In this document: positions 1,078 through 16,326 of the stretch, in pieces
How positions within the stretch are numbered: position 1 is the first letter of the stretch
How the letters are laid out: each line of letters starts with the position of its first letter
Assembly: GCA_963745025.1 (NCBI GenBank)
Contig: CAVUWD010000010.1
Span: forward strand, 93,794 to 157,793
Origin: an uncultured delta proteobacterium
GTDB lineage: Bacteria; Desulfobacterota; Binatia; JACPRU01
Length of the DNA: 64,000 nucleotides
Direction: 5' to 3'
The notes under the pieces: generated by a model
Seen by the model: only the letters and a program-made list of their open reading frames with translations
Database searches by the model: none
Told to the model about the DNA's origin: nothing
Translations under genes and position numbers: made by a program

Positions 1078-1692
1078 CTACCGCGGCGCCTCGATGGTGC
1101 CCACGCCGATCATCGAGTCGCGCGTGACGAGGCTTGCGAGCTCCTCCTCGGTCATCCCCTCGGTGCCCTTCGGCCGCTGCGGCAATACGAGGTAGCGGAT
1201 CTCCGAGCTCGAGTCCCAGACGCGAACCTCGACCGACGGATCGAGCACCACGCCGAACTCGGCGAGCACGGTGCGGGGCTCCTTCACCACGCGTGAGCGG
1301 TAGGGCAGGCTCTTGTACCAGGCCGGAGGCAGCCCGAGCACCGGCCACGGGTAGCAGGAGCAGAGCGTGCACACCACCACGTTATGAATCTTCGGCGTGT
1401 TCTCGACGGCCACCATGTGCTCGCCCTGAAGCCCGCCGATGCCGAGCTCGCCGAGCGCCGCCGTCGCGTTCTCGAGGAGCCGCTTCTTGAAATCCGGGTC
1501 CGTCCAAGCGCGCGCCACGGCCTTCGCGCCGTTGAGCGGTCCGATGTCCTTCTCATAAGCCGCCGCGACCTGATCGATCGCGTCGGAGGAGACCAACCCC
1601 TTCTCGATCAGCAGCGATTCGATGGCGCGGGCCCGCGCCTCGACTGGCGAAAGCGGCTCGGGGTGATGACCGCCGTCATGTTCTCCGCTCAT
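1078..1692 (-). CDS. nthA: nitrile hydratase alpha subunit, cobalt type
   Basis: The metal-binding claw [17 protein letters not shown] is present; Thr in C-T-L-C-S-C marks Co-type enzymes and Ser marks Fe-type. Its start overlaps the beta stop in an ATGA, and a GAGGAGGAAG Shine-Dalgarno lies inside the beta tail. Confidence 0.93.
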
Positions 1693-2447
1693 CGCTTCCT
1701 CCTCGGACGGCGCGTTACCGCTTTGCGGCGCCGGGTCTCGCCGCGGCTCCGCGCGGCGCGCTTCGGCGCGCGAGCGGCGGGCTCGAGATAGCTCTCCCAG
1801 AGGTCGACGTAGACCTTGCCCCTGCCCTCCGCGTCAGGTCCCCAGAGATCCGCTGCTTCGAAGCCGACGGTGTAGAGAACCCTTGGGCTTTCGCCGCCCC
1901 CGTGGGCATGGGCGTCGGGGAACACGAATCGCTCGTGAACCTGCTCGATCGTGCCCGTCGCGCCACGCACGTAACGGGGACAACGGGTGTGACCGTGCGG
2001 GTTCATGCGGCGCACGAGAACGCGTGCCCCGCTCGCAAAGCGAGCGCGCCCCTTGCCGCGTGAGGTTGGCGCGCCCGTGCGAATCGCCTGGGCGAGACGC
2101 TGCGCGAGCGCCGGATCGGAGCGTTCGGGAACCGCGGGCGGCGCGGCGGACGCGAACTCGCGTACCTTTGCCTCGATCTCGGCTGCGGACAGCCGGCCCT
2201 TTTCGACGAGCATGCGCTCGAGGCCCGCGAGCCAGTGCTCGTAGTACGGCGAGCCTAGATAGTGCGCGGGGCTCATGCGCTCGATCGAGTGTCGGATCTC
2301 GTCGATGTTGTAGAGACCCTGTCCCATGGTGGCGAGGAACATGCCGAAGACGCGCCGTTCCCACGTCTGGTGAAAAAGCGGTTCGTTCTTCTCGCGCACC
2401 ACCGGACCGAAACCGTCCATGCCGCCGAGATCGTGGATGCTGTTCAT
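1689..2447 (-). CDS. nthB: nitrile hydratase beta subunit with an Arg/Lys-rich C-terminal extension
   Basis: The N-terminus [16 protein letters not shown]...[15 protein letters not shown] and the C-domain ...[14 protein letters not shown]...[12 protein letters not shown] are typical of NHase beta. An additional tail [30 protein letters not shown] follows. Confidence 0.9.
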
Positions 2448-2591: not shown

Positions 2592-4337
2592 ATGGCCCAG
2601 ATCGACGGCGGAGAGATGCTCGTCCGAGTGCTCGAAAGCGCAGGGGTCGGGGAGCTGTTCACGCTCCACGGCGGCCACCTCGACGCAATCTATCAGGCCG
2701 CTCGGAATCACGGCTTGCGGCTCGTCGACACCCGCCACGAGCAGGCGGCCGGGCACGCCGCCGATGGCTGGGCGCGGACCACGGGCCGAATCGGCGTGGC
2801 GATCGTGACCGCCGGGCCGGGCGTGACCGACGTCGTCACCGCCGTCGCCAACGCCTACCTCGACTGCGTGCCGACGCTCTTCGTCGGAGGCGCCGCGCCG
2901 CTCGCCGATGCCGAGACCCTCCCCTTGCAGGGTGGATTCGACCAGCTCGATCTGCTGCGCCCCGTCACCAAGTGGGCGCATCGCGTGACCCACCCGCACC
3001 GCATCCCCGACCTGGTCGCGCAAGCGCTGCGCACGGCCTCGACGGGCCGGCCCGGTCCCGTCTACCTCGAGATCCCGATCGACGTTCTGTTCGCGCGCAT
3101 CGACGAGTCACGACCGTTCTTTCCGCGAACCGTCCGCCCGGACGCCGCTCCCGCCCCCGCACCGGAGGCAGTCGAACGCGCGATCGAAAAGCTGCGCGCC
3201 GCCGAGCGTCCGGCGATCCTCGCCGGTGGCGGCGCCTGGTTTTCCGGAGCCACGGCCGAGCTCGTCGCCTTTGCCGAGCGGACGGGGATCCCCGTGTTCG
3301 TCAACGCCAAAGCCCGCGGTATGATCGCGGACGACCATCCTCTGGCGGGCCGGAGCTTCGCCAATCTCGGCGTCGCCGCCGGGCTCGCGGGCGGCGGGCC
3401 GGACGTGGCGATGCTCGTCGGCGCGCGGCTCGGGCTCTTCACCGGCGGACGGAGCGGCGAGCTTCTCGGCGGCGCTCGCCTCATCCAGGTCGACATCGCG
3501 GGCGAAGAGATCGGGCGCAATCGTGACGTCGACGTGGCGATCGTCGCTGATTGCCGCGAGGCGCTGCGGGCGCTCGAGGCCGCGGCGAGCGCCGATCGGT
3601 GGCCGGAGCGAAGCGCGTGGCGGCGCTTCGTCGTCGAGGCCCGCGATCTTCACCGGCAGATGTTCCGCGACGCGAGCACGAAGGATTCGCCGCCGATTCA
3701 TCCGTATCGCCTGGCGGAGGCGGTCGCGCGAGCCGTCGAGCGCGACGCCGTCCTCGTGGCCGACGGTGGCGAGACCTCGTCGTGGCTCGACATGGTGGCA
3801 GAAGTGCGCGGTGGCGGCCACTGGCTCTCGCACGGTTATCTCGGCTGTCTCGGAACTGGAATGCCGTTCGCGATCGCCGCCAAGCTCGCGCATCCCGGCC
3901 GGCAGGTTGTGTGTGTCACGGGAGACGGCTCGGTCGGGCTCAACTTCGCCGAGTTCGACACCATGGTGCGTCACCGGCTGGCGATCACCACGGTCGTCAA
4001 CAACGACCAGCAGTGGGGTATGTCGGCGCACGGCCAGCAGTTGATCTACGGGAAAGAGCGGAAGGTGGTGACCGAGCTCGGCCCCACTCGCTACGATCTG
4101 GCCGCGGCGGGCTTCGGTTGCCACGCCGAGCACGTCGAGGAGCCGCGCGATCTCATGCCGGCGCTCGAGCGCGCGCTCGGGAACGGAAGGCCGGCGTGCG
4201 TCAACGTGATGACCGATCCCGACGCGATCGCGCCGATCACGCTCGCGATGTACGCCGCCTTCATGCCGTCCGACGAGCGGAAGGAGACGAAGGGCGACCG
4301 CGTGGCGATGCCGTACTACGGTGAAGGAGACACGTGA
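2592..4337 (+). CDS. thiamine-pyrophosphate-dependent enzyme (acetolactate-synthase large-subunit-like)
   Basis: The N-terminal Pyr domain reads GGEMLVRVLESAGVGELFTLHGGH...TRHEQAAGHAADGWAR. The TPP motif GDGSVGLNFAEFDTMVRHRLAITTVVNNDQQWG is present. I chose the ATG at 2592 because GAAGGAGG lies 8 nt upstream; the track ORF start at 2262 would overlap nthB. Confidence 0.85.
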   Translation: MAQIDGGEMLVRVLESAGVGELFTLHGGHLDAIYQAARNHGLRLVDTRHEQAAGHAADGWARTTGRIGVAIVTAGPGVTDVVTAVANAYLDCVPTLFVGGAAPLADAETLPLQGGFDQLDLLRPVTKWAHRVTHPHRIPDLVAQALRTASTGRPGPVYLEIPIDVLFARIDESRPFFPRTVRPDAAPAPAPEAVERAIEKLRAAERPAILAGGGAWFSGATAELVAFAERTGIPVFVNAKARGMIADDHPLAGRSFANLGVAAGLAGGGPDVAMLVGARLGLFTGGRSGELLGGARLIQVDIAGEEIGRNRDVDVAIVADCREALRALEAAASADRWPERSAWRRFVVEARDLHRQMFRDASTKDSPPIHPYRLAEAVARAVERDAVLVADGGETSSWLDMVAEVRGGGHWLSHGYLGCLGTGMPFAIAAKLAHPGRQVVCVTGDGSVGLNFAEFDTMVRHRLAITTVVNNDQQWGMSAHGQQLIYGKERKVVTELGPTRYDLAAAGFGCHAEHVEEPRDLMPALERALGNGRPACVNVMTDPDAIAPITLAMYAAFMPSDERKETKGDRVAMPYYGEGDT

Positions 4338-4404: not shown

Positions 4405-4794
4405 TCATCGGCGGAGAGAGCGGATGAAGGCGACGAGATCGGAGATCTTGTCCGCGGCGAGGCGATCTTCGTAAGCCGGCATCAACGTCGATTTTCCCAC
4501 CGCCTTCCCTCCCTCCCGGATCACCCGTGCGATCTGCTCATCCGGCCAATTCTCCATGACCCCGGAATCGGTGAAGTCGATCGGACGGTCTGCGCCCCTG
4601 ACCATCGCGAGCAGGCGGATGCCCATTCCTCCGCCCCTGCCATCGCGGCCGTGGCAGCCGGCGCAACGGTCGGCGAAGAGCACCGCTCCCGCCGAGGCAT
4701 CTTCCCCGGCCGCTTCGCCGCGGACCGCGGGCAGCGAGAGCACCGCGGCGGCGATCACCACTCGAGCCACGAAGCGATTGACGGCACTGCTCAC
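4405..4794 (-). CDS. monohaem class I c-type cytochrome, secreted
   Basis: It has a signal peptide, one CAGCH haem motif and a distal Met region (STLMPAY). Its GTG start overlaps the stop of the upstream YceI gene in a GTGA. Confidence 0.8.
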   Translation of the reverse strand: MSSAVNRFVARVVIAAAVLSLPAVRGEAAGEDASAGAVLFADRCAGCHGRDGRGGGMGIRLLAMVRGADRPIDFTDSGVMENWPDEQIARVIREGGKAVGKSTLMPAYEDRLAADKISDLVAFIRSLRR

Positions 4795-5570
4795 GATTTC
4801 CCCTCCTCTGCTGCGAGACTGTATCGCAGACCGCTCCCGTTGGTCGCGATCCCGTCTCCGGTCGAAGCATCCTGCCGAGCTGGGAGACTAGGTCGCAGAT
4901 CGCTCCCGTTGGTCGCGATCTCATCTTCGATCGAAGCATCCTGCCGAGCTAGCCCCGCGTGCGTGCCGGGGGCGAGTTGGCCGACTCCGCTGACCTCGAT
5001 CGCTACTTCTTTGGCGACCCGAAGGATCAGTAGGCTCGGGTCCTTCAGGCCCCAGGCGACGTATGGCACGAGGAAGTGCGTCGTGAAGGTGACTTGGTCG
5101 CCGATCAGACGGGCAACGACCGGAAGCGCGATCTCGTGCTCGGTTCCGTGCAGCGCGAGCAGGCCGTGCACCGCCAAGTGAATCTCGTCTGCCGCGGAGT
5201 CGAGCCGCTCGAAGCGTTGCGGGGTGAAGCGAATCTCCGGGTAACGGCTCGACTCGAGGACGTCGTTGCGCATCGCCGTGTCGCGGCTGTCGTTGCCGCT
5301 TCTCCCGCTCGCGGCATCGACGACGATGAGGCCCTCGGCTTTCCCCGTCGCCGGGTCGAGCCGGATGGTTCCGTGCTTGAGCGCGAACCCGCCCTCGACC
5401 GTGTGCAGCGCCCCGCGCAGCGTGAAGGCGACGCGCGTCGCGGCGGAATCGAGCTCGACCACCGCCGGCATCGCATCCGTCCCTGTCGCTTGCCCGCTGC
5501 AAAGCAGGAGCGTTGCCGCGAGCAGCGCCGGTCCCGCGATTCGCACGAAACGTCGCACCATCGGCGGCAT
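4791..5570 (-). CDS. YceI-like (polyisoprenoid/lipid-binding) periplasmic protein, possible lipoprotein, with a C-terminal 23-aa tandem repeat
   Basis: The body VAFTLRGALHTVEGGFALKHGTIRLDP...SRDTAMRNDVLESSRYPEIRF...LALHGTEHEIALPV is YceI-like. The signal/lipobox is LLLCSG. The start at 5568-5570 was placed by counting back 259 codons; the 521-aa track ORF upstream of it is Arg-rich junk. Confidence 0.8.
   Translation of the reverse strand: MPPMVRRFVRIAGPALLAATLLLCSGQATGTDAMPAVVELDSAATRVAFTLRGALHTVEGGFALKHGTIRLDPATGKAEGLIVVDAASGRSGNDSRDTAMRNDVLESSRYPEIRFTPQRFERLDSAADEIHLAVHGLLALHGTEHEIALPVVARLIGDQVTFTTHFLVPYVAWGLKDPSLLILRVAKEVAIEVSGVGQLAPGTHAGLARQDASIEDEIATNGSDLRPSLPARQDASTGDGIATNGSGLRYSLAAEEGKS
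4824..4951. repeat. two tandem copies of a 69-bp unit inside the 3' end of the YceI-like gene
   Basis: tcgcagaCcgctcccgttggtcgcgatc...gaagcatcctgccgagct at 4824 recurs at 4893 with a period of 69 nt (23 codons). It encodes ARQDASIEDEIATNGSDLRPSLP / ARQDASTGDGIATNGSGLRYSL. Confidence 0.85.
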
Positions 5571-5578
5571 CGGGATCC

Positions 5579-6709
5579 TCAGACGGCGGCCGCATCGGCA
5601 GCGACGAGCTGCCATGCGAAGCCGGCGACCGCCTTCGCGCCGATCGCGGTCGGCGGGAGAGCGCCGACGTGAATCCCGAGCAGCCGATGGAACACCTCGG
5701 GCCGCGACCGCAGCGCCGCCAGCGCGCGCCGGCGAACCCAAGCGATGTCGCTCATCAATAGCAGCAAGCTCGCCATCATCTTCGGCAGCCGGCCGATCCG
5801 GCGGTGCGCGTCTTGGTACGAACGGAGGTCGCTCGCCGCCAAGGCCTCGCCCAGCGCGACGGCCTGCTGGAATGCCATCGAGAGGCCTTCCCCGGTGATC
5901 GCATCGACCGATCCGGAGGCGTCGCCGACGAGCGCGGCTCGATTGGCGACGACGGCTCGCAAGCGTAGCGTCGCCGAGACGCCGCCCCTGACCGAGGTCG
6001 TCGGTCGCGCGTCGCCGAGTCGCTCCGCGAGATCGGGAAACGACAGCGCGAGGCTCTCGAGACGCTTGACGGGAACGTCGCCGATCAACGCGACGCAGAC
6101 TTCGTTCGCGCCGACGGGCGTTACGTACGCCTGGCAGCGGTTTCCCCAGTACACTTCCACGAAGTCGGTCCACGGGGTGACGCGGAAATGCTGTCGGACG
6201 CCGATCCGGCGTCGCGGAGCCCTCCGTGGGCCGACTCCCATCCGCGAGCGAATCCCCGACTGATGGCCATCCGCGCCGATCAGCCAGCGATAGCCGATGC
6301 GCCTTCCCCGGAGCTCGACCGCTCCCGTGCGATCGAATCGCACCGCTTCCCCCCAACAGGCTACGGCTCCGACGTCGAGCGCTCGCTCGAGCAAGCGGCG
6401 ATGAAGAACCGTGCGGCGGACGCCGACCGCCGGGATGCCGGGGAAGGCCGCTGCGGCGTGGAGATGACGATCGATGAAGCGGATCCCGTGGAACGGAAAC
6501 ACATCATCGTCGCCGAACGCGACTCCGAGGCGCTCCAGTGCCGCAACGCCGTCGGGCATGAGCCCTTCGCCGCAGGCCTTGTCGATCGGAGGACGCGCAC
6601 CGTCGGCGACGACCACGCTGAGCCCCCGCAGGCGAGCGGCGATGGCGGCGGCTAAGCCGGCCGGTCCTCCACCGACCACGAGGACGTCGATCTCGGCAGG
6701 AATTTCCAT
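5579..6709 (-). CDS. FAD-dependent oxidoreductase/monooxygenase (geranylgeranyl-reductase-like family)
   Basis: MEIPAEIDVLVVGGGPAGLAAA carries the GxGxxG motif. LIGADGHQSGIRSRMG and GDASGSVDAITGEGLSMA are also present. The start at 6707-6709 lies 5 nt after the PKS stop. Confidence 0.85.
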   Translation of the reverse strand: MEIPAEIDVLVVGGGPAGLAAAIAARLRGLSVVVADGARPPIDKACGEGLMPDGVAALERLGVAFGDDDVFPFHGIRFIDRHLHAAAAFPGIPAVGVRRTVLHRRLLERALDVGAVACWGEAVRFDRTGAVELRGRRIGYRWLIGADGHQSGIRSRMGVGPRRAPRRRIGVRQHFRVTPWTDFVEVYWGNRCQAYVTPVGANEVCVALIGDVPVKRLESLALSFPDLAERLGDARPTTSVRGGVSATLRLRAVVANRAALVGDASGSVDAITGEGLSMAFQQAVALGEALAASDLRSYQDAHRRIGRLPKMMASLLLLMSDIAWVRRRALAALRSRPEVFHRLLGIHVGALPPTAIGAKAVAGFAWQLVAADAAAV

Positions 6710-6714
6710 GAGCG

Positions 6715-7764
6715 TCACCACCGTACGAGCAGCAGCTCCGAGCAGAAGCCCGGACCGAGGGCGAGAAGAAGACCGAGCGTCCCCGGCGCCGGCCGCCGAT
6801 CGAGCATCACGTTCTCGAGCACGAGCAGGATCGAGGCGGACGAAAGGTTGCCGCAGCGGCGCAGGCAATTCCACGACGCCTCGAGATGTCGATTCGATAT
6901 CCCGAGCGCATCCTGGATGGCTTCGAGCACTTTCGGGCCGCCGGTGTGGATGACCCAGCTGCCGACGTCGTCGCGCGTGAGACCTTGCGCCGCCAGGAAC
7001 GAGTCCACGTCCTCGGTGAGTCGCTCGCGAATCAGCTCCGGAAGCTTTGCCGACAACACGATCTCGAAGCCTCGCTCGGAGATCTTCCAACCCATGATCT
7101 CTTCCGAGTCGGGATAGAAGACGGAATGGGTCGCGAGAATCTCCGGCCCCTCCTGCGCGCGCTCGGACCCGGTGACGATGGCGGCGGCGGCTCCATCGGC
7201 GAAGAGGCCGCTGGCGATCAGATTCGCGCTCGAGAGGTCGTCGTGCCGGAGCGTCAGCGAGCAGACCTCGACGGCGAGAATGGCGGCGGCCTGACGCGGA
7301 TAGGCGCGGGTATGGTCTGCGGCGCGCGTCACGCCGACTGCGCCGCCCACGCAGCCGAGCCCGAAGATCGGCGTCCGCTTGATGTCCGAGCGGAGCTTCA
7401 TCCGGTTGATGAGGCGCGCGTCCAGCGACGGGCTGGCGACCCCGGTGATCGAGACCACGTAGAGCGCGTCGAGCTCACTCCGCGCGAGTCCGGCGCGCCG
7501 GCAAGCGGCGTCGAGAGCACGGGCTCCAAGAGCCTCGGCGACCTCGAGCCAAGCGGAATTCGTCTGACCCCAGGTCTCGAATTCCGGATATCGCTCGAGC
7601 GGCAGGGCGAGGTGTCGATACTGGACCCCGGCGCGAGAATGGAATCGGTCGAGCAGATCGGGCTTCTCCAGCCGATCCTGCCAATGGTGCTTCAGCGCAG
7701 CCGTGATGAGGCTTTGGTGGTACCGATGCTCGGGCAGGGCGCTCGCCACGGCGGCGATTCTCAT
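6715..7764 (-). CDS. type III polyketide synthase (chalcone/stilbene synthase superfamily)
   Basis: The Cys-His-Asn triad contexts are present: IFGLGCVGGAVG, WVIHTGGPKVLEA and RRCGNLSSASILLVLE. The 349-aa length fits the family. Confidence 0.9.
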   Translation of the reverse strand: MRIAAVASALPEHRYHQSLITAALKHHWQDRLEKPDLLDRFHSRAGVQYRHLALPLERYPEFETWGQTNSAWLEVAEALGARALDAACRRAGLARSELDALYVVSITGVASPSLDARLINRMKLRSDIKRTPIFGLGCVGGAVGVTRAADHTRAYPRQAAAILAVEVCSLTLRHDDLSSANLIASGLFADGAAAAIVTGSERAQEGPEILATHSVFYPDSEEIMGWKISERGFEIVLSAKLPELIRERLTEDVDSFLAAQGLTRDDVGSWVIHTGGPKVLEAIQDALGISNRHLEASWNCLRRCGNLSSASILLVLENVMLDRRPAPGTLGLLLALGPGFCSELLLVRW

Positions 7765-7785
7765 GGGCGTACCGTTCCCGTCCGC

Positions 7786-9147
7786 TCAGATCTTCATCAC
7801 CCGCCGGGCCAGACCGAGGGCTTCGGTCCAGAAGCTCGAGGAGGTGTGAATCAATTCAAACACGGCATGGACCGCGGTCACGAATCGCTCGATCTGCTCC
7901 TCCGCGACCATCAACGGGGGCGTGACCTTCAGCACCATGAAATCGTTGCCGCAGATCTGGCTGAGGATTCCGTGGTCGCGGAAGAGCCTCATCACCACGA
8001 CCTGGCCGAACATGGCGGGATGGGTCCTTGCGAAGGCCTCGAAGGGCAGCCTCAGGCGAAAGCGCCGGGGTGCCTTGAACTCGATGCCGCAGAAGAGACC
8101 GAGGCCGCGCACCTCTCCGAACATCTCGTAGCCGCAGAGCCGCTCGACGAGCCGCGCGCGCAATCGTTCGCCGCTCTCCGCGGCTCGCCGCCCGAGCTGC
8201 TCGTGCTCGAGCACGTCGAGCGTCGCCAATCCCGCCCGCATCGCCAGGCTGTTCTCGCTGTACGTCGAGGTATGGACGAACGCGCGCTTCAGCGAGTCGT
8301 AGACCGAATCGCCGACGGCGTCCGTCATCAACACCGCTGCGCTCGGCACTAGCCCTCCGCTCAAGGCTTTGGCGAGCACGACCATGTCGGGCTCGACGCC
8401 GAAGTGATGGGCAGCGAGGAACGGGCCCGTGCGGTAGAGGCCCGTCTGCACCTCGTCGAGCACGAAGAGCGTCCCGAACCGGCGGCAGAGAGCCTCGGCC
8501 CGGCGCAAGTATTCGCTCGGGGCGATGCGGATTCCGCTTTCGCCCTGCACCGGCTCGACGACGAAGGCGGCGAACCGCCGGGTCGAGAGCTGGTGCTCGA
8601 GCTCCGCCAGGCGTCCGAAGGGAACCGACTCGGTGTCGGGCAGTAGGGCGCCGAAGCCTTGGGTCCAAAACGGGTTCGACATCAACGACAGCGCGCCGCA
8701 GGTGAGCCCGTGGAAGCCGCCGTCGGCGTAGAGCATGCCGGGTCGGCCGGTGTGGGCGCGCGCGAACTTGATGACCGCCTCGATCCCTTCGCTGCCCGAG
8801 CTGGCGAAGAATGCTCGGCCGAGCCGTCCTCCGGCCGACGCGCAAAGCCGTGCGGCGAGCTCGCCGGCGAGCTCGGAAACGTGGCTCTGCAGCATGGCGG
8901 GCCCCTGGCGGTCGAGTTCGTCCTTGATCGCGGCGATCACGCTCGGGTGGTTGTGGCCGACGTTGTGGACGCAGTAGCCGGAGAGAAAGTCGAGCAGTTG
9001 CCGTCCGTCGGCGGTGTGGAGCTCCGCGCCGCTGCAGCGCACGTATTCGACGTTCATCTGCAGCACGTTCAGCAATCGCACCCACTGGGGGTTGACGTGT
9101 CGCTCGTAGAGCCTGCCGCGATCTTCGGGGATTTTGTACTTGAGCAT
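7786..9147 (-). CDS. class III PLP-dependent aminotransferase (ornithine/putrescine/GABA aminotransferase-like)
   Basis: SGSEGIEAVIKFAR, FVLDEVQTGLYRTGPF and the PLP-lysine context DMVVLAKALSGG are present. I chose the start MLKYKIPEDRG at 9145-9147; upstream residues of the track ORF are Arg-rich and would cover the sigma-54 promoter. Confidence 0.85.
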   Translation of the reverse strand: MLKYKIPEDRGRLYERHVNPQWVRLLNVLQMNVEYVRCSGAELHTADGRQLLDFLSGYCVHNVGHNHPSVIAAIKDELDRQGPAMLQSHVSELAGELAARLCASAGGRLGRAFFASSGSEGIEAVIKFARAHTGRPGMLYADGGFHGLTCGALSLMSNPFWTQGFGALLPDTESVPFGRLAELEHQLSTRRFAAFVVEPVQGESGIRIAPSEYLRRAEALCRRFGTLFVLDEVQTGLYRTGPFLAAHHFGVEPDMVVLAKALSGGLVPSAAVLMTDAVGDSVYDSLKRAFVHTSTYSENSLAMRAGLATLDVLEHEQLGRRAAESGERLRARLVERLCGYEMFGEVRGLGLFCGIEFKAPRRFRLRLPFEAFARTHPAMFGQVVVMRLFRDHGILSQICGNDFMVLKVTPPLMVAEEQIERFVTAVHAVFELIHTSSSFWTEALGLARRVMKI

Positions 9148-9191: not shown

Positions 9192-9207
9192 TGCAATCAC
9201 CGAGCCA
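9192..9207 (-). promoter_or_regulatory. sigma-54 (-24/-12) promoter upstream of the aminotransferase/PKS operon
   Basis: The minus strand reads TGGCTCGGTGATTGCA against the consensus TGGCACG-N4-TTGCA. There is one mismatch and the GG..GC spacing is correct. The element lies about 45 nt upstream of the ATG at 9147. Confidence 0.7.
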
Positions 9208-9291
9208 GCAGCGCTCGCCGGCAACGCGGCCGTATTCCCGGCGCGACCGAAGCAACGACCGTGGTCGACGTTGCCGAACCCGACAGGCGCT

Positions 9292-9399
9292 TGCCGAGAT
9301 CGGCAGAAACACGCTCGGGCGCTCTCCGCGCTCGGCTGGTCCGGTTGACCTTGAAGGTTAGTGCCTGCGGAAATCGGCAGGACGGTGCCGAAATCGGCA
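9292..9399. promoter_or_regulatory. three copies of the inverted repeat TGCCGA-N2-TCGGCA, candidate enhancer (UAS) sites for the adjacent NtrC-type activator
   Basis: The sites are TGCCGAGATCGGCA at 9292-9305, TGCGGAAATCGGCA at 9366-9379 and TGCCGAAATCGGCA at 9386-9399. The last two are 20 bp apart centre to centre. They lie 85-190 bp upstream of the sigma-54 promoter. Confidence 0.6.
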
Positions 9400-9433: not shown

Positions 9434-10771
9434 CTACAAGCCGTGCTTCTTGAGCTTGGTCCAAAGCGTGCGCTCGCCGATCCCGAGGAGCGCCGCGGCC
9501 GCGGTCTTGTTGTCCTTGGTTTCCATGAGCGCGCGCAGAATGATCCTACGCTCGGTCTCGGCGACGGCGCGTTCGAGATTCAAGTCCGCCGGACCGGCGA
9601 GGACTTCCTCGGGGAGCAGCGAGCGAACGAGACTCTGCGGAATCTCGCCCCGCGCGGCGAGGACTGCGGCCCGCTCCATGACGTTGCGGAGCTCTCGCAC
9701 GTTGCCCGGCCAGCTATAGCGCCCGAGCGCCTGCAGCGCCTCGTCCGCGACGTGGAGGGGCGGCTTGCCGAGCTCCTTCGAGAATTGGGCGAGAAAGGCG
9801 TTGGCGAGGTCTCCGATGTCCTCCTTCCGTTCGCGCAACGGCGGGAGGTGCAGATGGAACACGTTCAGGCGGTAGAAGAGATCCTCGCGGAACGTGCCGT
9901 CGCGAATCACGCTGCGCAAATCGCGGTTGGTCGACGAGACGATCCGCACGTCGACCGTGACGCGCCGGTTGGAGCCGACCGGCTCGATCACGCCCTCCTG
10001 CAGGACCCGTAGCAGCTTCGCTTGCAGCGGGTACGCCATGTCGCCGATCTCGTCGAGGAAGAGAGTTCCCTCGTCCGCCATCTTGAACTTGCCGACGCGC
10101 TCGGCGTGCGCGCCGGTGAATGCTCCACGCGCGTGCCCGAAGAGCTCGCTTTCGAGCAGATCCGCCGGAATCGCCGTGCAGTTGAGCGGCACGAAGAGCT
10201 TCGCGGCGCGCGGGCTGAGATCGTGGATCGCTCGCGCGACGAGCTCCTTGCCGGTACCCGTCTCGCCGGTAATCAGCACCGCGCTCTTGGTGGGTGCCAC
10301 TTGCCGGACGAGATCGTAGACCGGCTGCATCGCCGGCGACTCGCCGATGAGGTTCGCGATCGCCGCGCCGCTCGACTGCTCGCGGTAGAAGCGGTTCTCC
10401 AGCTGATAGCGCGACACGTCGAGCGCTTTGCGGATGACGATCTCCAGCGCGGCTCGGTCGAAGGGCTTCAGAACGAAATCGAAGGCGCCGAGCTTCATCG
10501 CCTCGATCGCGGTGGAGATCGTCCCGAATGCCGTGAGAATGATGACCGGCACGTCGGGATCGATCGCGCGTAGCTCGCGGAGCAGCGCGAGGCCGTCCAT
10601 CGGCGCCATCTTGAGATCGCTGAGCACCAGATCGATCTGCTCGCTCCGGAAGATCGCGAGCGCCTGCTCCCCTCCCTCGGCGGCGCTCGACTCGAGGCCG
10701 ATCTTCTCGATCAGGATCTGCAGCACGCGCCGCATGCGCTGCTCGTCGTCGACGACGAGGACTCGCTTCAT
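9434..10771 (-). CDS. sigma-54-dependent response regulator (NtrC family: REC + AAA+ + Fis-type HTH)
   Basis: REC domain with DLVLSDLKMAPMDG. Walker A is GETGTGKE. The sigma-54 contact motif GAFTGA is present, and the C-terminal HTH reads NKTAAAALLGIGERTLWTKLKKHGL. Confidence 0.93.
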   Translation of the reverse strand: MKRVLVVDDEQRMRRVLQILIEKIGLESSAAEGGEQALAIFRSEQIDLVLSDLKMAPMDGLALLRELRAIDPDVPVIILTAFGTISTAIEAMKLGAFDFVLKPFDRAALEIVIRKALDVSRYQLENRFYREQSSGAAIANLIGESPAMQPVYDLVRQVAPTKSAVLITGETGTGKELVARAIHDLSPRAAKLFVPLNCTAIPADLLESELFGHARGAFTGAHAERVGKFKMADEGTLFLDEIGDMAYPLQAKLLRVLQEGVIEPVGSNRRVTVDVRIVSSTNRDLRSVIRDGTFREDLFYRLNVFHLHLPPLRERKEDIGDLANAFLAQFSKELGKPPLHVADEALQALGRYSWPGNVRELRNVMERAAVLAARGEIPQSLVRSLLPEEVLAGPADLNLERAVAETERRIILRALMETKDNKTAAAALLGIGERTLWTKLKKHGL

Positions 10772-12501
10772 GGCGTGTTCTCCGCGGCCGGCAGCTCGAC
10801 GCGAAACACACTGCCCGCGCCCACTACGCTCTCGACCGACAACTTGCCCTTGTGCTCTTGGATTACGCGTCGCACGACGGTCAGTCCGAGGCCGATTCCC
10901 CCTTCCCGCCTCGTGAAGAACGGCAGAAAGATCCTCTGGCGGATGTCTTCGGGGATTCCCGGGCCGTTGTCGCGAACCTCGAATCCCACGAAGCCCCCGC
11001 TCTCTGGTAGCACGACGACGGTCACCTCGCCTCCGGTCGGCACCACTTGCACCGCGTTGACGATCAGATTCAGCGCGACCTGATACATTTGGCCCTCGTC
11101 GCAGAGGGCAAGCGCGCCTTCGCCGCCGACCCGGCGGATCATCACGCCCTTGGCGCGAGCCTGGGGCTCGGCGAAGTCGGCGGCTCGGAACACGACGTTG
11201 CGCAGCGGAGTCCGATCGACCATCAGTTCGCGCGGCCTGCCGAGATTGAGGAGCTGCGTGACGACGTGGTCGAGATGTTCGATCTCGTCGAGCATGATCT
11301 GGATCAGCTCCGCGGCCTCGGCGTCCCTCGCGCCGAGCGACGGTTGAAGGATCTGCGCCGAGCTGCGCAGCACCCCGAGCGTGGTTCGCACCTGGTGCGC
11401 GATGCCGGCCGCGAGCTCGCCGACGAACGCGAACTTGGCGGCCTCGAGCACATCGCTCTGCGCGCGCCGCAGGTCGACCGACATCTGATTGAAGGCAGCC
11501 GTGAGCTGACCGACCTCGTCGCGCGAGCGCGTGGCGATCGGCACCGCGAGTGGCTCGCCGCTCGAGATCTCTCGTGTGGCCAGCGTCAGCTCGCGCAGCG
11601 GACGGGCCACGCGATTGGCGAGCACGATCGCCAGACCGAGCGCCAACGCGAGCCCCGCGGCGAGACCGATTCCCAGCCGAACGGTCATCGCGCGCACGGG
11701 TTGGAGCGCTCTCGAGAGCGGCTGCACGACGAGGATCGTCCAGGCCGGGGTGGCGCCGGGCATGCGCGAGTAGCCGACGAGCGCGCGCGCCGCTCGTTCG
11801 ACGGCGAATCCGGACGAAGCGCCGCCACGCGTGTCATCGATCGTGGTCCATCCGGCGGCGCGCAGATCCCTGCCGATCGGCGCGCGCGTGCCTGGCTCGA
11901 CGGCTCCGCCGATCACCACCCCGGATCCGTCCGTGATCACGACGTCGGCTTCGAGGCTCATCTCGTGCAGGCCCTGACGAATCTGCCCGAGCGCGCTCGT
12001 CTGGTGCGCCCAGTCGTAGAGCGCAGTCAACCGCCCGAAGGAGGCGCCGCTGCGATCGGGGTCCGGAATCGGTACGCCGAGCTCGAGCCCGCTTTTATCC
12101 CCCGGCCGCAGCGGGCCACGCAGCGATTCCCCCAGCGGCGCGGTGTTTGCTCCTCCGACCGGAGGATCCGTCCGGCCGATGCTCGATGGGTCGCTGGCGG
12201 CGACGATCCGTCCCGCCGAATCCGTTACGTGGAGCTCCACGATGGACTCGTCGCCCCGCTTTACCTCAGCCAAGAATGCCGAAATCCGCTTGTCGAGATC
12301 GCCGATGCGAATCTCTCTCATCAAGTCTTGGTGGGCGATGGTGCGCAAGTCGCCGAGCTCCGTGTTGAGAGTCGCCGCCAGAGAGTCGGCGCCGCCACGC
12401 GCTTCTTCGGCGAGCTGGCGGCCGATCGTCTCCGTCAATGCGCGACGCCCGTTCGAGATCGCGATCCAGCCGAAGACTCCCCCGGGGACCACGACGATCA
12501 A
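10768..12501 (-). CDS. sensor histidine kinase (periplasmic sensing domain, HAMP, HisKA, HATPase_c)
   Basis: The H-box is ELAAGIAHQVRTTLGVL, followed by an N-box (NLIVNAVQV), G1 (VRDNGPGIP) and G2 (GIGLGLTVV). It overlaps the response regulator gene by 4 nt. The TTG start at 12501 truncates TM1; the in-frame upstream residues LRTKLLAFALL suggest the true start lies a little further upstream (up to about 12565). Confidence 0.85.
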   Translation of the reverse strand: MIVVVPGGVFGWIAISNGRRALTETIGRQLAEEARGGADSLAATLNTELGDLRTIAHQDLMREIRIGDLDKRISAFLAEVKRGDESIVELHVTDSAGRIVAASDPSSIGRTDPPVGGANTAPLGESLRGPLRPGDKSGLELGVPIPDPDRSGASFGRLTALYDWAHQTSALGQIRQGLHEMSLEADVVITDGSGVVIGGAVEPGTRAPIGRDLRAAGWTTIDDTRGGASSGFAVERAARALVGYSRMPGATPAWTILVVQPLSRALQPVRAMTVRLGIGLAAGLALALGLAIVLANRVARPLRELTLATREISSGEPLAVPIATRSRDEVGQLTAAFNQMSVDLRRAQSDVLEAAKFAFVGELAAGIAHQVRTTLGVLRSSAQILQPSLGARDAEAAELIQIMLDEIEHLDHVVTQLLNLGRPRELMVDRTPLRNVVFRAADFAEPQARAKGVMIRRVGGEGALALCDEGQMYQVALNLIVNAVQVVPTGGEVTVVVLPESGGFVGFEVRDNGPGIPEDIRQRIFLPFFTRREGGIGLGLTVVRRVIQEHKGKLSVESVVGAGSVFRVELPAAENTP

Positions 12502-12592: not shown

Positions 12593-13729
12593 ATGACGGC
12601 GTCCGATTTCCAATTCTCCGAGCGGATGTCGTGCCGCCTCGACCGGCCGACGGCTGGTCTCCGTGTCGCGTGGATTGCCGCCCTGCTTCTGCTGCTCGCG
12701 CCGGCGGCGTTCGCGCAAGACGCTCGCGCGCCGGAGCTCCCGCAGCCGGAACAGAGACCGGTGCTGGTCAGCCCGACTGCGATTGGCGACCTCGAGTATC
12801 GTCCGGGTCGCGGGCTCAGGATCGGCGACACCGGGTTCACGATCGGTGGCTACTCCACGCTCGCCGTCTCGCGACTCGAAGGTGAGCACTGGCGATTCGG
12901 CTTCGACGACCTGGATCTCTTCGTCTTTTACGATCCGACGCCGTATCTCCACCTGTTTTCGGACACCGGGTTCCAGCACATCTTCGATCTCGACGACACC
13001 GGCGGGGGCGGCACTTCGCAGGCCGAGGCGTCGATCGAGCGACTGTACGGCGACCTGAATCTCAGTGATCGCGCCAACTTCCGGGTCGGGAAGTTCTTGA
13101 CCCCGGTCGGACGGTGGAACCAGGTCCCCGCTGAGCCGCTGGTCTGGACGACCTCTCGTCCGTTGGTGACGAGCCGCCCGTTCGACGAGCACGTTGCCGG
13201 CGCGGCCTTCTGGGGAAGCGCGTTCCCCGCCGACGGATCGCTCTCATACAAGGTCTACGGGCAGTTCTTCGATCAGTTGACGTCGGACACGTCGACATCG
13301 CCTTCGGACGAGAGCGTCGGCGCCCGCCTCGATTTCTCCTCGCTCGGCGGTTGGTCGCTCGGCAGCTCGTACTTCGCCTTCACGCGCAACGGGAAGTGGA
13401 ATCAGCTCGGGGGCGTCGACGGGCTCTGGCAGTGGGACCGATGGGAGGCGAGCGGGGAGCTCCTGGCGGGTCACGGTGATCCCGATGGCCACCGAATCTT
13501 CGGGATATACCTCCAGGGCGTCGTCGAATTGCTCGCCGGCATCCACGCGATCGCTCGCTACGAGTATTACGAGCCTGGTGCCAACCACGCGGCGATCGAC
13601 CTCTACGATACCGGCCTCGCCTGGCGTCCTCTCTCGTTCCTGATCCTCAAGGCCGACTACCTGTTCGCGAACCACTCCTCGGAGTTCGCCTCTCCGGGTC
13701 TGCAGGGATCCTTTGCGCTTCTCTTCTGA
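12593..13729 (+). CDS. predicted outer-membrane beta-barrel (porin-like) protein
   Basis: The signal peptide reads ...GLRVAWIAALLLLLAPAAFAQDA. The sequence has alternating-hydrophobic strands rich in aromatics and Gly, and ends in ...GLQGSFALLF (C-terminal Phe). An alternative start is the ATG at 12626. The upstream part of the 528-aa track ORF is antisense to the kinase. Confidence 0.6.
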   Translation: MTASDFQFSERMSCRLDRPTAGLRVAWIAALLLLLAPAAFAQDARAPELPQPEQRPVLVSPTAIGDLEYRPGRGLRIGDTGFTIGGYSTLAVSRLEGEHWRFGFDDLDLFVFYDPTPYLHLFSDTGFQHIFDLDDTGGGGTSQAEASIERLYGDLNLSDRANFRVGKFLTPVGRWNQVPAEPLVWTTSRPLVTSRPFDEHVAGAAFWGSAFPADGSLSYKVYGQFFDQLTSDTSTSPSDESVGARLDFSSLGGWSLGSSYFAFTRNGKWNQLGGVDGLWQWDRWEASGELLAGHGDPDGHRIFGIYLQGVVELLAGIHAIARYEYYEPGANHAAIDLYDTGLAWRPLSFLILKADYLFANHSSEFASPGLQGSFALLF

Positions 13730-14159
13730 CATACTGCGCCGCGCCGCGCCGCTGCTGGCCTTGGCGTTGTCGCTGGTCGCAACCAGCGCGCGACCCGTGG
13801 ACGTCGCGATCGCCGTGATCGTTCACCCGAGCCGCGATCGGTCTCTACCCGTGGACGACGTTGCGCGAATCTTCCTGAAGAAGCAGCGCTTCTGGAACGA
13901 CGGGGCGCCGATCGTCCCGCTCAACCGCGAAGCAGGAAGCGCGATTCGAGAGATCTTCTCGCGACGGGTCTTCGGCATGTCGAGCGCCGCGCTGGCGGCC
14001 TATTGGAACGACCAGTACTTTCTCGGCACGTTTCCCCCCGTGATCTTGTCTTCCACGGAAGCCGTGAAGCGTTATGTCGCGTCGGATCCAAACGCCATCG
14101 GCTATGTCGACGCCGGCTACGTCGACTCGACTGTCCGCCTCGTTCTCGAGCTGTCGTGA
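13713..14159 (+). CDS. small secreted PstS-like (PBP_like_2) substrate-binding-domain protein
   Basis: Signal peptide followed by IAVIVHPSRDRSLPVDDVARIFLKKQRFWNDGAPIVPLNREAGSAIREIF...AIGYVDAGYVD, which resembles single-lobe phosphate-binding-protein-like domains. The TTG start overlaps the end of the porin gene. Confidence 0.55.
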   Translation: MRFSSDILRRAAPLLALALSLVATSARPVDVAIAVIVHPSRDRSLPVDDVARIFLKKQRFWNDGAPIVPLNREAGSAIREIFSRRVFGMSSAALAAYWNDQYFLGTFPPVILSSTEAVKRYVASDPNAIGYVDAGYVDSTVRLVLELS

Positions 14160-16090: not shown

Positions 16091-16326
16091 CCGCGAAGCT
16101 CCGCTACAGCCGCGAGGAGCTCTCGGCCGACCCCGCCTATTCGCGGCGCATCGAAGCGGTCGTCGACGCGATCTGCGAGAAGATCATCCGCACGCAGACC
16201 GGGGGGGGCGGCGCGACCCGACGGAGAGACGATCATCGCCGAGTTCGAGCGGCTCGGGCCCGTTCCGAGTTGATCCTACTTCTCCCCGTCGGGGAGAGGG
16301 CAAACCGAGGGGGGACGCAGAGATGA
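16087..16326 (+). CDS. small hypothetical ORF bridging TetR and the monooxygenase; frame uncertain after a G8 homopolymer
   Basis: The ATG overlaps the TetR stop (ATGA) and, as given, the stop overlaps the next ATG (ATGA). The N-half MTAKLRYSREELSADPAYSRRIEAVVDAICEKIIRTQT looks protein-like. After G8 (16201-16208) the given frame turns Arg-rich, whereas a -1 frame reads GGAARPDGETIIAEFERLGPVPS*. Confidence 0.35.
   Translation: MTAKLRYSREELSADPAYSRRIEAVVDAICEKIIRTQTGGGGATRRRDDHRRVRAARARSELILLLPVGERANRGGTQR

What the first reader, a model, noticed from the sequence alone, without database searches (positions are those of the whole stretch)
4405..9147. Type III PKS embedded in an unusual five-gene operon: aminotransferase / type III PKS / FAD oxidoreductase / YceI / cytochrome c
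Seen in sequence: five minus-strand genes separated by 21, 5 and 8 nt and a 4-nt overlap. A sigma-54 promoter precedes them and a histidine kinase/NtrC pair lies immediately upstream.

Established: bacterial type III PKS operons such as Streptomyces srsABC and Azotobacter ars make alkylresorcinols/alkylpyrones, and an FAD hydroxylase (SrsC) converts these to alkylquinones. YceI proteins bind polyisoprenoid or quinone-like lipids.

Inference: combining a class III aminotransferase with a periplasmic lipid binder and a c-type cytochrome, and lacking the usual methyltransferase, suggests an aminated or otherwise modified redox-active phenolic lipid. That lipid could be handed to the periplasm as an electron shuttle or membrane quinone analogue. 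I do not know of a described cluster with this composition.
Basis: partly seen in the sequence, partly recalled or inferred. Interest (0 to 1): 0.7.

Follow-up and report, generated by a model that had tools for sequence, protein, structure and literature searches.

The report
Aminotransferase-linked type III PKS lipid operon
This is a real sigma-54-controlled operon whose core (aminotransferase, type III polyketide synthase, flavin monooxygenase, often a periplasmic lipid-binding protein) recurs in uncultured soil bacteria of three phyla and probably makes an undescribed nitrogen-bearing phenolic or quinone lipid.

Summary
Five minus-strand genes (4405-9147) have exactly the stated spacing. 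They lie behind a GG-N10-GC sigma-54 promoter with four upstream palindromes, next to an NtrC-type activator and a HAMP histidine kinase.

The gene set is not a one-off. AT-PKS-FAD is colinear in about 40 loci from Binatia, Alphaproteobacteria and Acidobacteriota. YceI follows in Binatia and Acidobacteriota. Three AT orthologues picked without regard to the PKS all sat beside a type III PKS and the FAD gene.

The PKS and the FAD enzyme are 47% and 44% identical to the PKS and monooxygenase of a Streptomyces srsABC-type alkylquinone operon. No methyltransferase is present. The aminotransferase falls in the PigE / hopanoid-cluster subfamily, which aminates lipid carbonyls.

The cytochrome c occurs only in the nearest relatives (PKS 84% identical).

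Best reading: an SrsA/SrsC-like route to an alkyl(hydroxy)quinol, made nitrogen-bearing by the aminotransferase and carried in the periplasm by YceI. In this lineage a c-type cytochrome may act as redox partner.

The chemistry is inferred, not shown. I found no paper describing this cluster. Verdict: new variant of a known kind, moderately high interest.

The parts
7786..9147 (-). Class-III (PigE / hopanoid-cluster subfamily) PLP aminotransferase, first gene of the operon
   Evidence: PF00202, 282 bits. Best NCBIfam hit is the PigE aminotransferase domain, 395 bits; best PDB hit is 4ppm. It is 42.7% identical to the AT of a Streptomyces hopanoid cluster. With that protein it shares a ~25-aa insertion and Lys407 where ArgD-type enzymes have Arg. 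The PLP lysine is K260 in LAKALSGG. Orthologues are 64-75% identical beside the PKS in about 40 loci.
6715..7764 (-). Type III polyketide synthase of the long-chain Pks11/SrsA type
   Evidence: Pfam type III PKS domains. Best PDB hit is M. tuberculosis Pks11, 312 bits, against 147 bits for THN synthase. It is 47% identical to the SrsA-like PKS of L086. The C138/H273/N306 triad is invariant.
5579..6709 (-). SrsC-type FAD-dependent aromatic monooxygenase
   Evidence: 43.8% identical over 317 aa (E 2.7e-50) to the FAD monooxygenase of the Streptomyces T3PKS-ICMT-FAD operon L086. Its NCBIfam hit profile matches that protein's. The AlphaFold model has pLDDT 89.7, and its best PDB folds are aromatic-ring flavoenzymes: Bmp2, PqsL, KMO, PHBH, MHPCO.
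4791..5570 (-). Secreted YceI-family lipocalin (predicted carrier of the lipid product), with a 69-bp x2 tandem duplication in its C-terminal tail (4810-4950)
   Evidence: PF04264, 74 bits. PDB hits are polyisoprenoid-binding proteins 5w37, 2fgs and 1wub. An N-terminal signal peptide is visible in the sequence. YceI is adjacent to the PKS in 22 loci. Tandem repeat.
4405..4794 (-). Secreted monohaem class-I cytochrome c; its start overlaps the yceI stop by 4 nt
   Evidence: PF13442 and PF00034. CAGCH at residue 44, a signal peptide and a strong GAGGAGG ribosome-binding site. Conserved at 69% identity only in L092-L094.
9193..9207 (-). Sigma-54 (-24/-12) promoter
   Evidence: TGGCTCGGTGATTGC, with GG-N10-GC spacing. 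Conserved in L092/L093. Equivalent sites upstream of AT occur only in loci with a sigma-54 activator nearby.
9272..9399 (-). Four palindromes of the form TGCCGA-N3-TCGGCA, probable activator binding sites (UAS)
   Evidence: Read at 9386-9399, 9366-9379, 9292-9305 and 9272-9285. All four are conserved in L092/L093 while the flanking spacer diverges.
9434..10771 (-). NtrC-family sigma-54 activator (receiver, AAA+ with GAFTGA, HTH_8)
10768..12501 (-). HAMP/HisKA/HATPase sensor kinase; start codon uncertain
   Evidence: The kinase-activator pair precedes the operon in L092/L093 as well.
12626..14159 (+). Possible accessory sensing genes, divergent from the kinase: a secreted protein with no Pfam hit (12626-13729) and a short PBP_like_2 protein (13713-14159)
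   Evidence: Homologues at 28-40% identity sit in the two-component operon beside AT-PKS-FAD in alphaproteobacterial loci L014, L021, L027 and L079. Whether they belong to the system is tentative.

Best explanation
The operon encodes a variant of the SrsABC/PkqABC phenolic-lipid and quinone pathway. An aminotransferase takes the place of the O-methyltransferase.

Proposed steps:
1. The Pks11/SrsA-like type III PKS extends a fatty-acyl starter with malonyl-CoA to an alkylresorcinol or alkylpyrone. Homology is shown; the product is inferred.
2. The SrsC-type flavin monooxygenase hydroxylates the ring, giving an alkyl-hydroxyquinol/quinone. Homology and fold are shown; the reaction is inferred.
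3. The PigE/HpnO-subfamily aminotransferase puts an amino group on a carbonyl of this lipid. The most attractive site is the hydroxyquinone keto tautomer, which would give an amino-alkylbenzoquinone. This is inferred, and the site is unresolved.
4. The secreted YceI lipocalin binds the product in the periplasm. This is inferred from the family's known quinone and isoprenoid ligands and from conserved adjacency to the PKS.
5. In this lineage only, a co-translated periplasmic cytochrome c exchanges electrons with the bound quinol/quinone. This is the weakest step.

Expression comes from a sigma-54 promoter driven by the adjacent kinase/NtrC-type pair. The promoter, UAS and activator are seen in the sequence; the signal is unknown.
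For: - Operon architecture and promoter.
- Conserved AT-PKS-FAD colinearity. Of 68 genome loci with at least 2.5 kb on both sides, 33 have AT plus FAD (14 of them also YceI), 29 have neither and only 6 are partial.
- Three of three AT orthologues picked without reference to the PKS lie beside T3PKS plus FAD.
- The PKS is 47% and the FAD enzyme 44% identical to the PKS and monooxygenase of a Streptomyces T3PKS-ICMT-FAD operon. The srs operon makes alkylresorcinols that are methylated and hydroxylated, and the homologous pkq operon gives quinones (PMC6669644; PMC9927152).
- The FAD model has an aromatic flavin-monooxygenase fold.
- No ICMT or other methyltransferase homologue was found in the window.
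- The AT shares a subfamily with PigE and the hopanoid-cluster AT, both of which aminate lipid carbonyls.
- Precedent for aminating a T3PKS-derived hydroxyquinone: Fur3 on mompain (PMC11969235; PMC7463872).
- YceI proteins carry ubiquinone-8 or octaprenyl ligands and pair with a cytochrome in the BcnA-LcoA system (PMC9113575).
- YceI stays next to the PKS even in loci that lack AT or FAD: L007, L048, L095.
Against: - No product or transcript data exist, and all relatives are MAGs or metagenome contigs.
- Known members of the AT subfamily act on aldehydes on lipid side chains, not on ring ketones. No aldehyde-forming reductase is in the operon.
- Fur3, the only documented quinone aminotransferase in a T3PKS cassette, belongs to the DegT family and is not homologous.
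- The role of the homologous FAD oxidoreductase could not be shown in planctomycetes (PMC10896814).
- Automatic annotations of the FAD orthologues waver between hydroxylase and menaquinone reductase.
- Cytochrome c is confined to one narrow lineage, and YceI is missing from the alphaproteobacterial clusters.
- There is no dedicated exporter in the window. ABC transporters flank only 6 of 39 core loci.
Confidence: 0.45

Rival explanations
1. Amine or N-heterocycle route, like PigE, HpnO or plant coniine biosynthesis. The PKS releases a linear or side-chain carbonyl, such as a 2'-oxoalkyl resorcinol/pyrone or a di- or triketone. The aminotransferase converts that carbonyl to an amine, which may cyclise. 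The flavoenzyme then oxidises or hydroxylates the product. The result would be an aminoalkyl-phenolic lipid or an alkyl-pyridine/piperideine, not an aminoquinone.
For: The AT's closest characterised relatives aminate side-chain carbonyls of lipids. These are the PigE domain (395 bits) and the hopanoid-cluster AT (42.7% identity, shared insertion and Lys407). PqsL, which acts on an aromatic amine, is among the closest folds to the FAD enzyme. AT is the first and most conserved gene of the cluster.
Against: The PKS and FAD enzyme are clearly SrsA/SrsC-like, which points to ring chemistry. No thioester or carboxylate reductase is present to make an aldehyde. Coniine-type pathways need a ketoreductase, which this operon lacks.
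Confidence: 0.25
2. An ordinary Srs/Pkq-type alkylresorcinol or alkylquinone cluster. On this reading the aminotransferase is metabolically unrelated (ornithine, putrescine or acetylornithine metabolism), and YceI and cytochrome c are neighbours by chance.
For: JGI names the AT orthologues ornithine--oxo-acid transaminase. AT scores 230-264 bits on the ArgD, OAT and putrescine-AT models. The PKS/FAD pair alone resembles known operons.
Against: AT and FAD co-occur almost perfectly with this PKS clade across three phyla: 33 loci have both, 3 AT only and 2 FAD only. Three of three independently sampled AT orthologues are PKS-adjacent. All housekeeping-model scores fall below their curated cut-offs. 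A separate ArgD-like gene lies in an arg operon in L003, and a second class-III AT lies elsewhere in the window. The 21-nt gap and single promoter tie AT to the PKS.
Confidence: 0.12
3. Same chemistry, different physiology. The YceI-bound phenolic lipid or quinol acts as a periplasmic and envelope antioxidant that is re-reduced by a cytochrome, as proposed for BcnA-LcoA. It would then be neither a respiratory carrier nor an extracellular shuttle.
For: The YceI lipocalin plus cytochrome pairing, and the proposed quinone-mediated quenching of lipid peroxyl radicals (PMC9113575). The yceI and cytochrome c genes overlap by 4 nt. Other Binatia loci carry a Haem_bd (PF14376) protein near the PKS.
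Against: The cytochrome here is a soluble class-I c type, not a membrane b561, and it is lineage-restricted. Polyketide quinones from the homologous pkq operon act as respiratory carriers (PMC9927152). Sigma-54 control says nothing about oxidative stress.
Confidence: 0.15

Closest known systems
SrsABC (Streptomyces griseus) / PkqABC (Mycobacterium smegmatis, Streptomyces sp. MNU77) alkylresorcinol-to-alkylbenzoquinone operons
   Same: Homologous type III PKS (47% identity) and FAD monooxygenase (44% identity) to a Streptomyces operon with this architecture. Compact operon, and a lipidic phenol/quinone product is expected.
   Different: No ICMT-type O-methyltransferase. A class-III aminotransferase leads the operon instead. 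A secreted YceI and, in this lineage, a cytochrome c are added. The hosts are Gram-negative (Binatia, Acidobacteriota, Alphaproteobacteria) and control is by sigma-54.
HidABC (picocyanobacteria) and the planctomycetal mtr-fdo-t3pks operons (PMC10896814)
   Same: Type III PKS with an FAD-dependent oxidoreductase. One relative ('S. ferox') also has a lipid/isoprenoid-binding protein gene in the operon.
   Different: Those operons contain methyltransferases and no aminotransferase. The role of their oxidoreductase is itself unresolved.
Fur1-Fur2-Fur3 / NapB1-3 cassette of THN meroterpenoid clusters (8-amino-flaviolin)
   Same: The same logic: a type III PKS, an oxygenase and an aminotransferase make an aminated hydroxyquinone (PMC11969235, PMC7463872).
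   Different: Only the PKS superfamily is shared. There the PKS is a THN synthase, the oxygenase a cupin and the AT a DegT/DnrJ/EryC1 enzyme (L091). Here they are Pks11-like, an FAD monooxygenase and a class-III AT. The resemblance is analogy, not homology.
BcnA-LcoA (YceI lipocalin plus cytochrome b561) periplasmic detoxification system (PMC9113575)
   Same: A secreted YceI lipocalin is co-expressed with a cytochrome. A quinone bound in the lipocalin is the proposed redox mediator.
   Different: The cytochrome here is a soluble monohaem c type, not a membrane b561. Here the operon also encodes synthesis of what is presumably a dedicated ligand.
PigE (prodigiosin MAP pathway) and the hopanoid-cluster aminotransferase (HpnO type)
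   Same: Same class-III AT subfamily: best NCBIfam and PDB hits, a shared insertion, and Lys in place of the Arg of ArgD-type enzymes. Their substrates are hydrophobic.
   Different: About 43% identity or less. There is no PigE N-terminal domain and no PigD-type partner. The genomic context is a type III PKS, not prodigiosin or hopanoid genes.
Rhodoquinone (amino analogue of ubiquinone, made by RquA)
   Same: If the product is an amino-alkylbenzoquinone, it relates to methoxy polyketide quinones as rhodoquinone relates to ubiquinone: amino in place of methoxy, with a lower potential (PMC9814641; the analogy is my inference).
   Different: [quoted passage not shown] Nothing here is homologous to it, and the product is unproven.

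Membership tests
Type III polyketide synthase (chalcone synthase superfamily) | Chal_sti_synt N and C domains with a Cys-His-Asn catalytic triad | tested here: met
   Pfam hits PF00195, PF02797 and PF08392. C138, H273 and N306 are invariant in 37 homologues.
SrsABC / PkqABC alkylquinone operon | Long-chain alkylresorcinol-type T3PKS homologous to SrsA/PkqA | tested here: met
   47% identical over the full length to the PKS of the Streptomyces T3PKS-ICMT-FAD operon L086. Best PDB hit is Pks11. W226 lies in the MGW motif shared with Pks11. The product itself was not tested.
SrsABC / PkqABC alkylquinone operon | SrsC/PkqC-type FAD monooxygenase in the operon | tested here: met
   43.8% identical over 317 aa, E 2.7e-50. 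Same NCBIfam hit profile. Aromatic flavin-monooxygenase fold.
SrsABC / PkqABC alkylquinone operon | SrsB/PkqB isoprenylcysteine-carboxyl-methyltransferase-family O-methyltransferase | tested here: not met
   tblastn with the ICMT genes of L086 and L087 and with the class-I methyltransferase of L079 found nothing in the 64-kb window.
Fur1-3 / NapB1-3 aminoflaviolin cassette | THN synthase (RppA-type) PKS | tested here: not met
   THN synthase 1u0m scores 147 bits against 312 bits for Pks11. In the neighbour-joining tree L091, used as the outgroup, lies far from the window's clade.
Fur1-3 / NapB1-3 aminoflaviolin cassette | Cupin (MomA-type) monooxygenase and DegT/DnrJ/EryC1-family aminotransferase | tested here: not met
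   The cassette in L091 has a cupin and a DegT-family AT. tblastn with both found no homologue in the window.
DpgA-D / HpgT dihydroxyphenylglycine pathway | DpgA equivalog plus DpgB/C/D | tested here: not met
   The DpgA model scores 176 bits against a cut-off of 425. No enoyl-CoA hydratase or DpgC-like genes are in the operon.
Flavin-dependent halogenase | WxWxIP motif in addition to GxGxxG | tested here: not met
   Halogenases (Bmp2, Mpy16) are the top fold hits. No WxWxIP motif is visible in the 376-aa sequence (read).
Geranylgeranyl reductase / MenJ family | Score above the TIGR02032 or MenJ cut-off | tested here: not met
   TIGR02032 scores 90.8 bits (cut-off 158.8) and MenJ 57.7 bits (cut-off 700). 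GGR structures are not among the best 50 fold matches. A KACGEG motif resembling the GGR Cys motif is present, so distant kinship remains.
YceI lipocalin family | PF04264 domain and secretion signal | tested here: met
   74 bits against a cut-off of 23.7. An N-terminal hydrophobic signal sequence is present. The ligand cannot be tested with these tools.
BcnA-LcoA lipocalin-cytochrome system | Cytochrome b561 membrane protein encoded upstream of the lipocalin | tested here: not met
   The adjacent cytochrome is a 129-aa class-I c type with a signal peptide and lies downstream.
Sigma-54-dependent operon | -24 GG / -12 GC promoter plus a bacterial enhancer-binding protein with GAFTGA | tested here: met
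   Promoter at 9193-9207, conserved in relatives. The activator has Sigma54_activat (237 bits) and GAFTGA at residue 216. Activity cannot be tested here.

The most novel reading that the evidence does not exclude
The conserved AT-T3PKS-FAD module makes a polyketide-derived amino-benzoquinone. This would be a rhodoquinone-like, low-potential lipoquinone built without the isoprenoid or shikimate quinone pathways. It would be widespread in uncultured soil Binatia, Acidobacteriota and Alphaproteobacteria. In Binatia it would be loaded onto a periplasmic YceI lipocalin that exchanges electrons with a dedicated c-type cytochrome.
Probability: 0.15. Interest if true: 0.85.

Novelty: new variant of a known kind. 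Interest (0 to 1): 0.62.

Why it matters
Type III PKS phenolic lipids and polyketide quinones are known from Actinobacteria, Azotobacter, cyanobacteria and planctomycetes. They serve as envelope components and as alternative respiratory carriers.

This finding defines a large uncharacterised sister family. The PKS search returned more than 7,500 homologues, many at about 65-70% identity. About 40 of 80 genome loci from three phyla carry the aminotransferase module. In this family the methyltransferase is replaced by a dedicated aminotransferase, often with a periplasmic lipocalin.

If the product is an aminated quinone or phenolic lipid, it would be a new class of bacterial redox or envelope lipid in abundant, uncultured soil lineages. 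It would also give YceI proteins a genetically linked ligand. The module is only 3.6-4.4 kb, so heterologous expression can test this directly.

Tried and rejected
- DpgA / dihydroxyphenylglycine pathway: the model scores far below its cut-off and the partner genes are absent.
- Homology to the Fur1-3 aminoflaviolin cassette: I rebuilt the THN synthase sequence from the PDB alignment and found a Streptomyces cassette (L091). Its AT is DegT-type and its oxygenase a cupin, and neither has a homologue in the window. It stays as an analogy only.
- PigD-PigE-PigB-like pyrrole pathway using the neighbouring ThDP enzyme (2592-4337): that gene is convergent, resembles acetolactate synthase or 2-hydroxyacyl-CoA lyase, and is syntenic only in the closest relatives.
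- Halogenase reading of the FAD enzyme: no WxWxIP motif.
- Geranylgeranyl / MenJ reductase reading: below cut-offs and not among the top folds.
- Dedicated exporter: ABC genes flank only 6 of 39 core loci and none flanks the window's operon.
- Cultured carriers: the plasmid collection holds nothing above 48% (PKS) or 43% (AT) identity.
- Rfam: no RNA family in the window. tRNAs: none.
- Literature searches for T3PKS with YceI, with aminotransferase, or with Binatia/Acidobacteria returned nothing relevant.
- The resorcinol-versus-pyrone residue (ArsB Trp281, cited in PMC9927152) could not be mapped with certainty. W226 is shared with Pks11, but CylI has Leu there.

Full report
**Observation**

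The window has 66-71% G+C across the region. Six-frame ORF listing and translation with Pfam and NCBIfam scans confirm five consecutive minus-strand genes:
- a class-III aminotransferase (7786-9147, 453 aa);
- a type III PKS (6715-7764, 349 aa);
- an FAD enzyme (5579-6709, 376 aa);
- a YceI protein (4791-5570, 259 aa);
- a monohaem cytochrome c (4405-4794, 129 aa).

The chosen starts agree with orthologue lengths.

Upstream lie an NtrC-type activator with a GAFTGA motif (9434-10771) and a HAMP histidine kinase (10768-12501). TGGCTCGGTGATTGC at 9193-9207 is a GG-N10-GC sigma-54 site 46 nt before the AT start.

Loose matches to that consensus are as common in the window as chance predicts. What counts is position and conservation. 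In the closest relatives (L092/L093) the promoter and four TGCCGA-N3-TCGGCA palindromes are preserved within an otherwise diverged spacer. Across all loci, a sigma-54 site upstream of AT appears only where a sigma-54 activator gene is nearby: L007, L015 and L092-94.

No sigma-70-like promoter lies inside the array, and terminator-like sites are at chance level.

**Is the gene set a unit?**

The PKS has thousands of homologues: more than 7,500 at E <= 1e-20, many at 65-70% identity. Neighbourhoods were read from metagenome contigs and from 80 GTDB genome loci. I analysed them by tblastn and all-against-all ORF clustering.

They show three architectures:
- Binatia and Acidobacteriota: AT-PKS-FAD-YceI, sometimes with a secreted TPR protein.
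- Alphaproteobacteria: AT-PKS-FAD without YceI, embedded in a larger cluster. That cluster holds a T_hemolysin-family protein, an AMP ligase, a haem-oxygenase-like iron enzyme, an SDR, a TPR protein and a UbiE-like methyltransferase.
- An acidobacterial clade in which the PKS stands with an unknown secreted protein near dprA and topA, with no AT or FAD.

Among 68 genome loci with at least 2.5 kb on both sides of the PKS:
- 33 have both AT and FAD, and 14 of these also have YceI;
- 29 have none of the three;
- 6 are partial.

Three AT orthologues chosen without reference to the PKS all sat next to T3PKS plus FAD. AT is the most conserved protein of the set, at 64-75% identity across phyla.

So AT-PKS-FAD is a real module, and YceI is a frequent fourth member. 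Cytochrome c occurs only in L092-L094, where the PKS is 84% and the cytochrome 69% identical. Those loci reproduce the whole kinase-activator-AT-PKS-FAD-YceI-cytochrome array. Other Binatia loci instead carry a Haem_bd (PF14376) protein nearby.

All relatives are MAGs or metagenome contigs.

**What the enzymes are**

*PKS.* Its best solved relative is M. tuberculosis Pks11 at 312 bits. CylI scores 203 bits and THN synthase 147 bits. The DpgA model is far below its cut-off.

*FAD enzyme.* A Streptomyces plasmid carries a T3PKS-ICMT methyltransferase-FAD monooxygenase operon (L086). That is the srsABC/pkqABC architecture described in PMC6669644 and PMC9927152.
- The window PKS is 47% identical to that operon's PKS.
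- The window FAD enzyme is 43.8% identical over 317 aa (E 2.7e-50) to its monooxygenase.
- Both FAD proteins give the same NCBIfam hit profile.
- An AlphaFold model (pLDDT 89.7, pTM 0.90) best matches flavoenzymes that act on aromatic rings: Bmp2, PqsL, KMO, PHBH and MHPCO.
- The halogenase WxWxIP motif is absent. Geranylgeranyl reductases are not among the top folds.

*Methyltransferase.* No ICMT or other methyltransferase homologue exists anywhere in the window.

*Aminotransferase.* Its best NCBIfam hit is the PigE aminotransferase domain (395 bits) and its best PDB hit is PigE 4ppm.
- Its best homologue in a cultured organism (42.7% identity) is the AT at the end of a Streptomyces hopanoid cluster (shc-hpnH-ispG-dxs-AT). 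By context that is the HpnO type.
- That protein also hits PigE best.
- The two share a ~25-aa insertion and a Lys (K407, VLKVTPPL) where ArgD-type enzymes have Arg.
- The AT therefore belongs to a subfamily whose known members aminate carbonyls on hydrophobic molecules.

*YceI and cytochrome c.* YceI's solved relatives are polyisoprenoid-binding proteins. The cytochrome resembles CcoP-type class-I domains. Both have signal peptides.

**Mechanism proposed**

Shown: the homologies, the operon structure, the conserved linkage, and the promoter with its activator. Inferred: every chemical step.

1. The PKS makes an alkylresorcinol or alkylpyrone from a fatty-acyl starter.
2. The SrsC-type monooxygenase hydroxylates the ring to a hydroxyquinol/quinone.
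3. The AT installs nitrogen.
4. YceI carries the product in the periplasm.
5. In this lineage a cytochrome c talks to it.

Amination of a T3PKS-derived hydroxyquinone has a precedent. [quoted passage not shown] I tested whether that cassette is homologous. In a Streptomyces example (L091) the oxygenase is a cupin and the AT a DegT-family enzyme, and neither has a homologue in the window. The resemblance is convergent logic, not membership.

YceI lipocalins bind ubiquinone-8 or octaprenyl compounds. In the BcnA-LcoA system they are proposed to be re-reduced by a cytochrome (PMC9113575). That gives a precedent for the YceI-cytochrome pairing, although the cytochrome type differs here.

If nitrogen replaces the methoxy group of Srs/Pkq quinones, the product would stand to polyketide quinones as rhodoquinone stands to ubiquinone (PMC9814641). 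This is my inference and is given as the novel case.

**Rivals**

1. The AT subfamily's known substrates are side-chain aldehydes. An aminoalkyl or N-heterocyclic lipid (PigE-, HpnO- or coniine-like logic) is therefore a serious alternative. It is weakened by the SrsC-like flavoenzyme and by the lack of any aldehyde-forming reductase.
2. A plain Srs-type cluster with an unrelated housekeeping AT is unlikely, given the linkage statistics and the below-cut-off scores on ArgD, OAT and putrescine-AT models.
3. The physiological role is open: respiratory carrier (Pkq-like) or envelope antioxidant (BcnA-like).

**Comparison with known systems, and novelty**

The module passes the membership tests for T3PKS, for the SrsA- and SrsC-type enzymes, for YceI and for sigma-54 control. 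It fails the SrsB methyltransferase test and all the Fur-cassette-specific tests.

Full-text searches found no description of a T3PKS cluster with this aminotransferase or with YceI. The nearest mention is a lipid/isoprenoid-binding protein gene in one 'S. ferox' T3PKS operon.

I rate it a new variant of a known kind: a widespread, uncharacterised aminotransferase-type branch of the bacterial phenolic-lipid / polyketide-quinone clusters.

**Limits**

- There are no expression or product data.
- The host taxonomy (probably Binatia) is inferred only from the nearest relatives.
- The neighbour-joining tree is rough.
- The co-occurrence counts are not phylogenetically independent.

Noticed in passing
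window 4810-4950 (-), inside the 3' end of yceI: A 69-bp unit is repeated twice in tandem at 87% identity. It adds about 23 aa (ARQDAS..IATNGS..) to the C-terminal tail. YceI is 259 aa here against 224 aa in relatives L092-L094.
   Followed up: partly
window 12626-13729 (+) and 13713-14159 (+): A secreted protein with no Pfam hit and a short PBP_like_2 protein lie divergent from the histidine kinase. Homologues at 28-40% identity sit inside the two-component operon beside AT-PKS-FAD in alphaproteobacterial loci L014, L021, L027 and L079. This may be a conserved sensing accessory.
   Followed up: partly
window 14234-15103 (+); L015 10103-10963; L007 about 11272-12210: A secreted PAP2-superfamily protein with a degenerate phosphatase motif. 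Its ~50%-identical homologue lies directly after the PKS in L015 and 1.2 kb after it in L007. No FAD gene was detected in either of those Binatia loci.
   Followed up: partly
loci L014, L017-L030, L039, L079, L099 (Alphaproteobacteria): An extended conserved cluster surrounds AT-PKS-FAD. It contains a T_hemolysin-family protein (PF12261), an AMP-binding ligase, a haem-oxygenase-like iron enzyme (PF14518), an SDR, a TPR lipoprotein and a UbiE/COQ5-like methyltransferase. None of these has a counterpart beside the window's operon.
   Followed up: partly
loci L037, L040, L042, L045 and about 25 other acidobacterial loci: A sister PKS clade lacks AT, FAD and YceI. Its PKS is always followed by a ~474-aa secreted protein with no Pfam hit. 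In about a dozen of these loci dprA and/or topA lie just upstream.
   Followed up: no
window 2592-4337 (+): A ThDP enzyme (acetolactate synthase / 2-hydroxyacyl-CoA lyase-like, below all equivalog cut-offs) is convergent on the cytochrome c gene. It is syntenic at 88% identity only in L092 and L094. A 37%-identical paralogue with a CoA-transferase lies 3.5 kb from YceI in L096.
   Followed up: partly
window 1078-2447 (-): Nitrile hydratase alpha and beta subunit genes.
   Followed up: no
window 15449-17558 (+): A TetR regulator followed by a luciferase-like monooxygenase.
   Followed up: no
window about 37620-38534 (-): A second class-III aminotransferase, 34% identical to the hopanoid-cluster AT used as probe. 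It is presumably a housekeeping enzyme.
   Followed up: no
L089 (Methylocystis iwaonis plasmid) 4834-7371: An 845-aa PigE-like fused aminotransferase lies in a cluster with an ACP, an AMP-binding protein, a class I/II aminotransferase-fold enzyme, a methyltransferase and a PKS.
   Followed up: no
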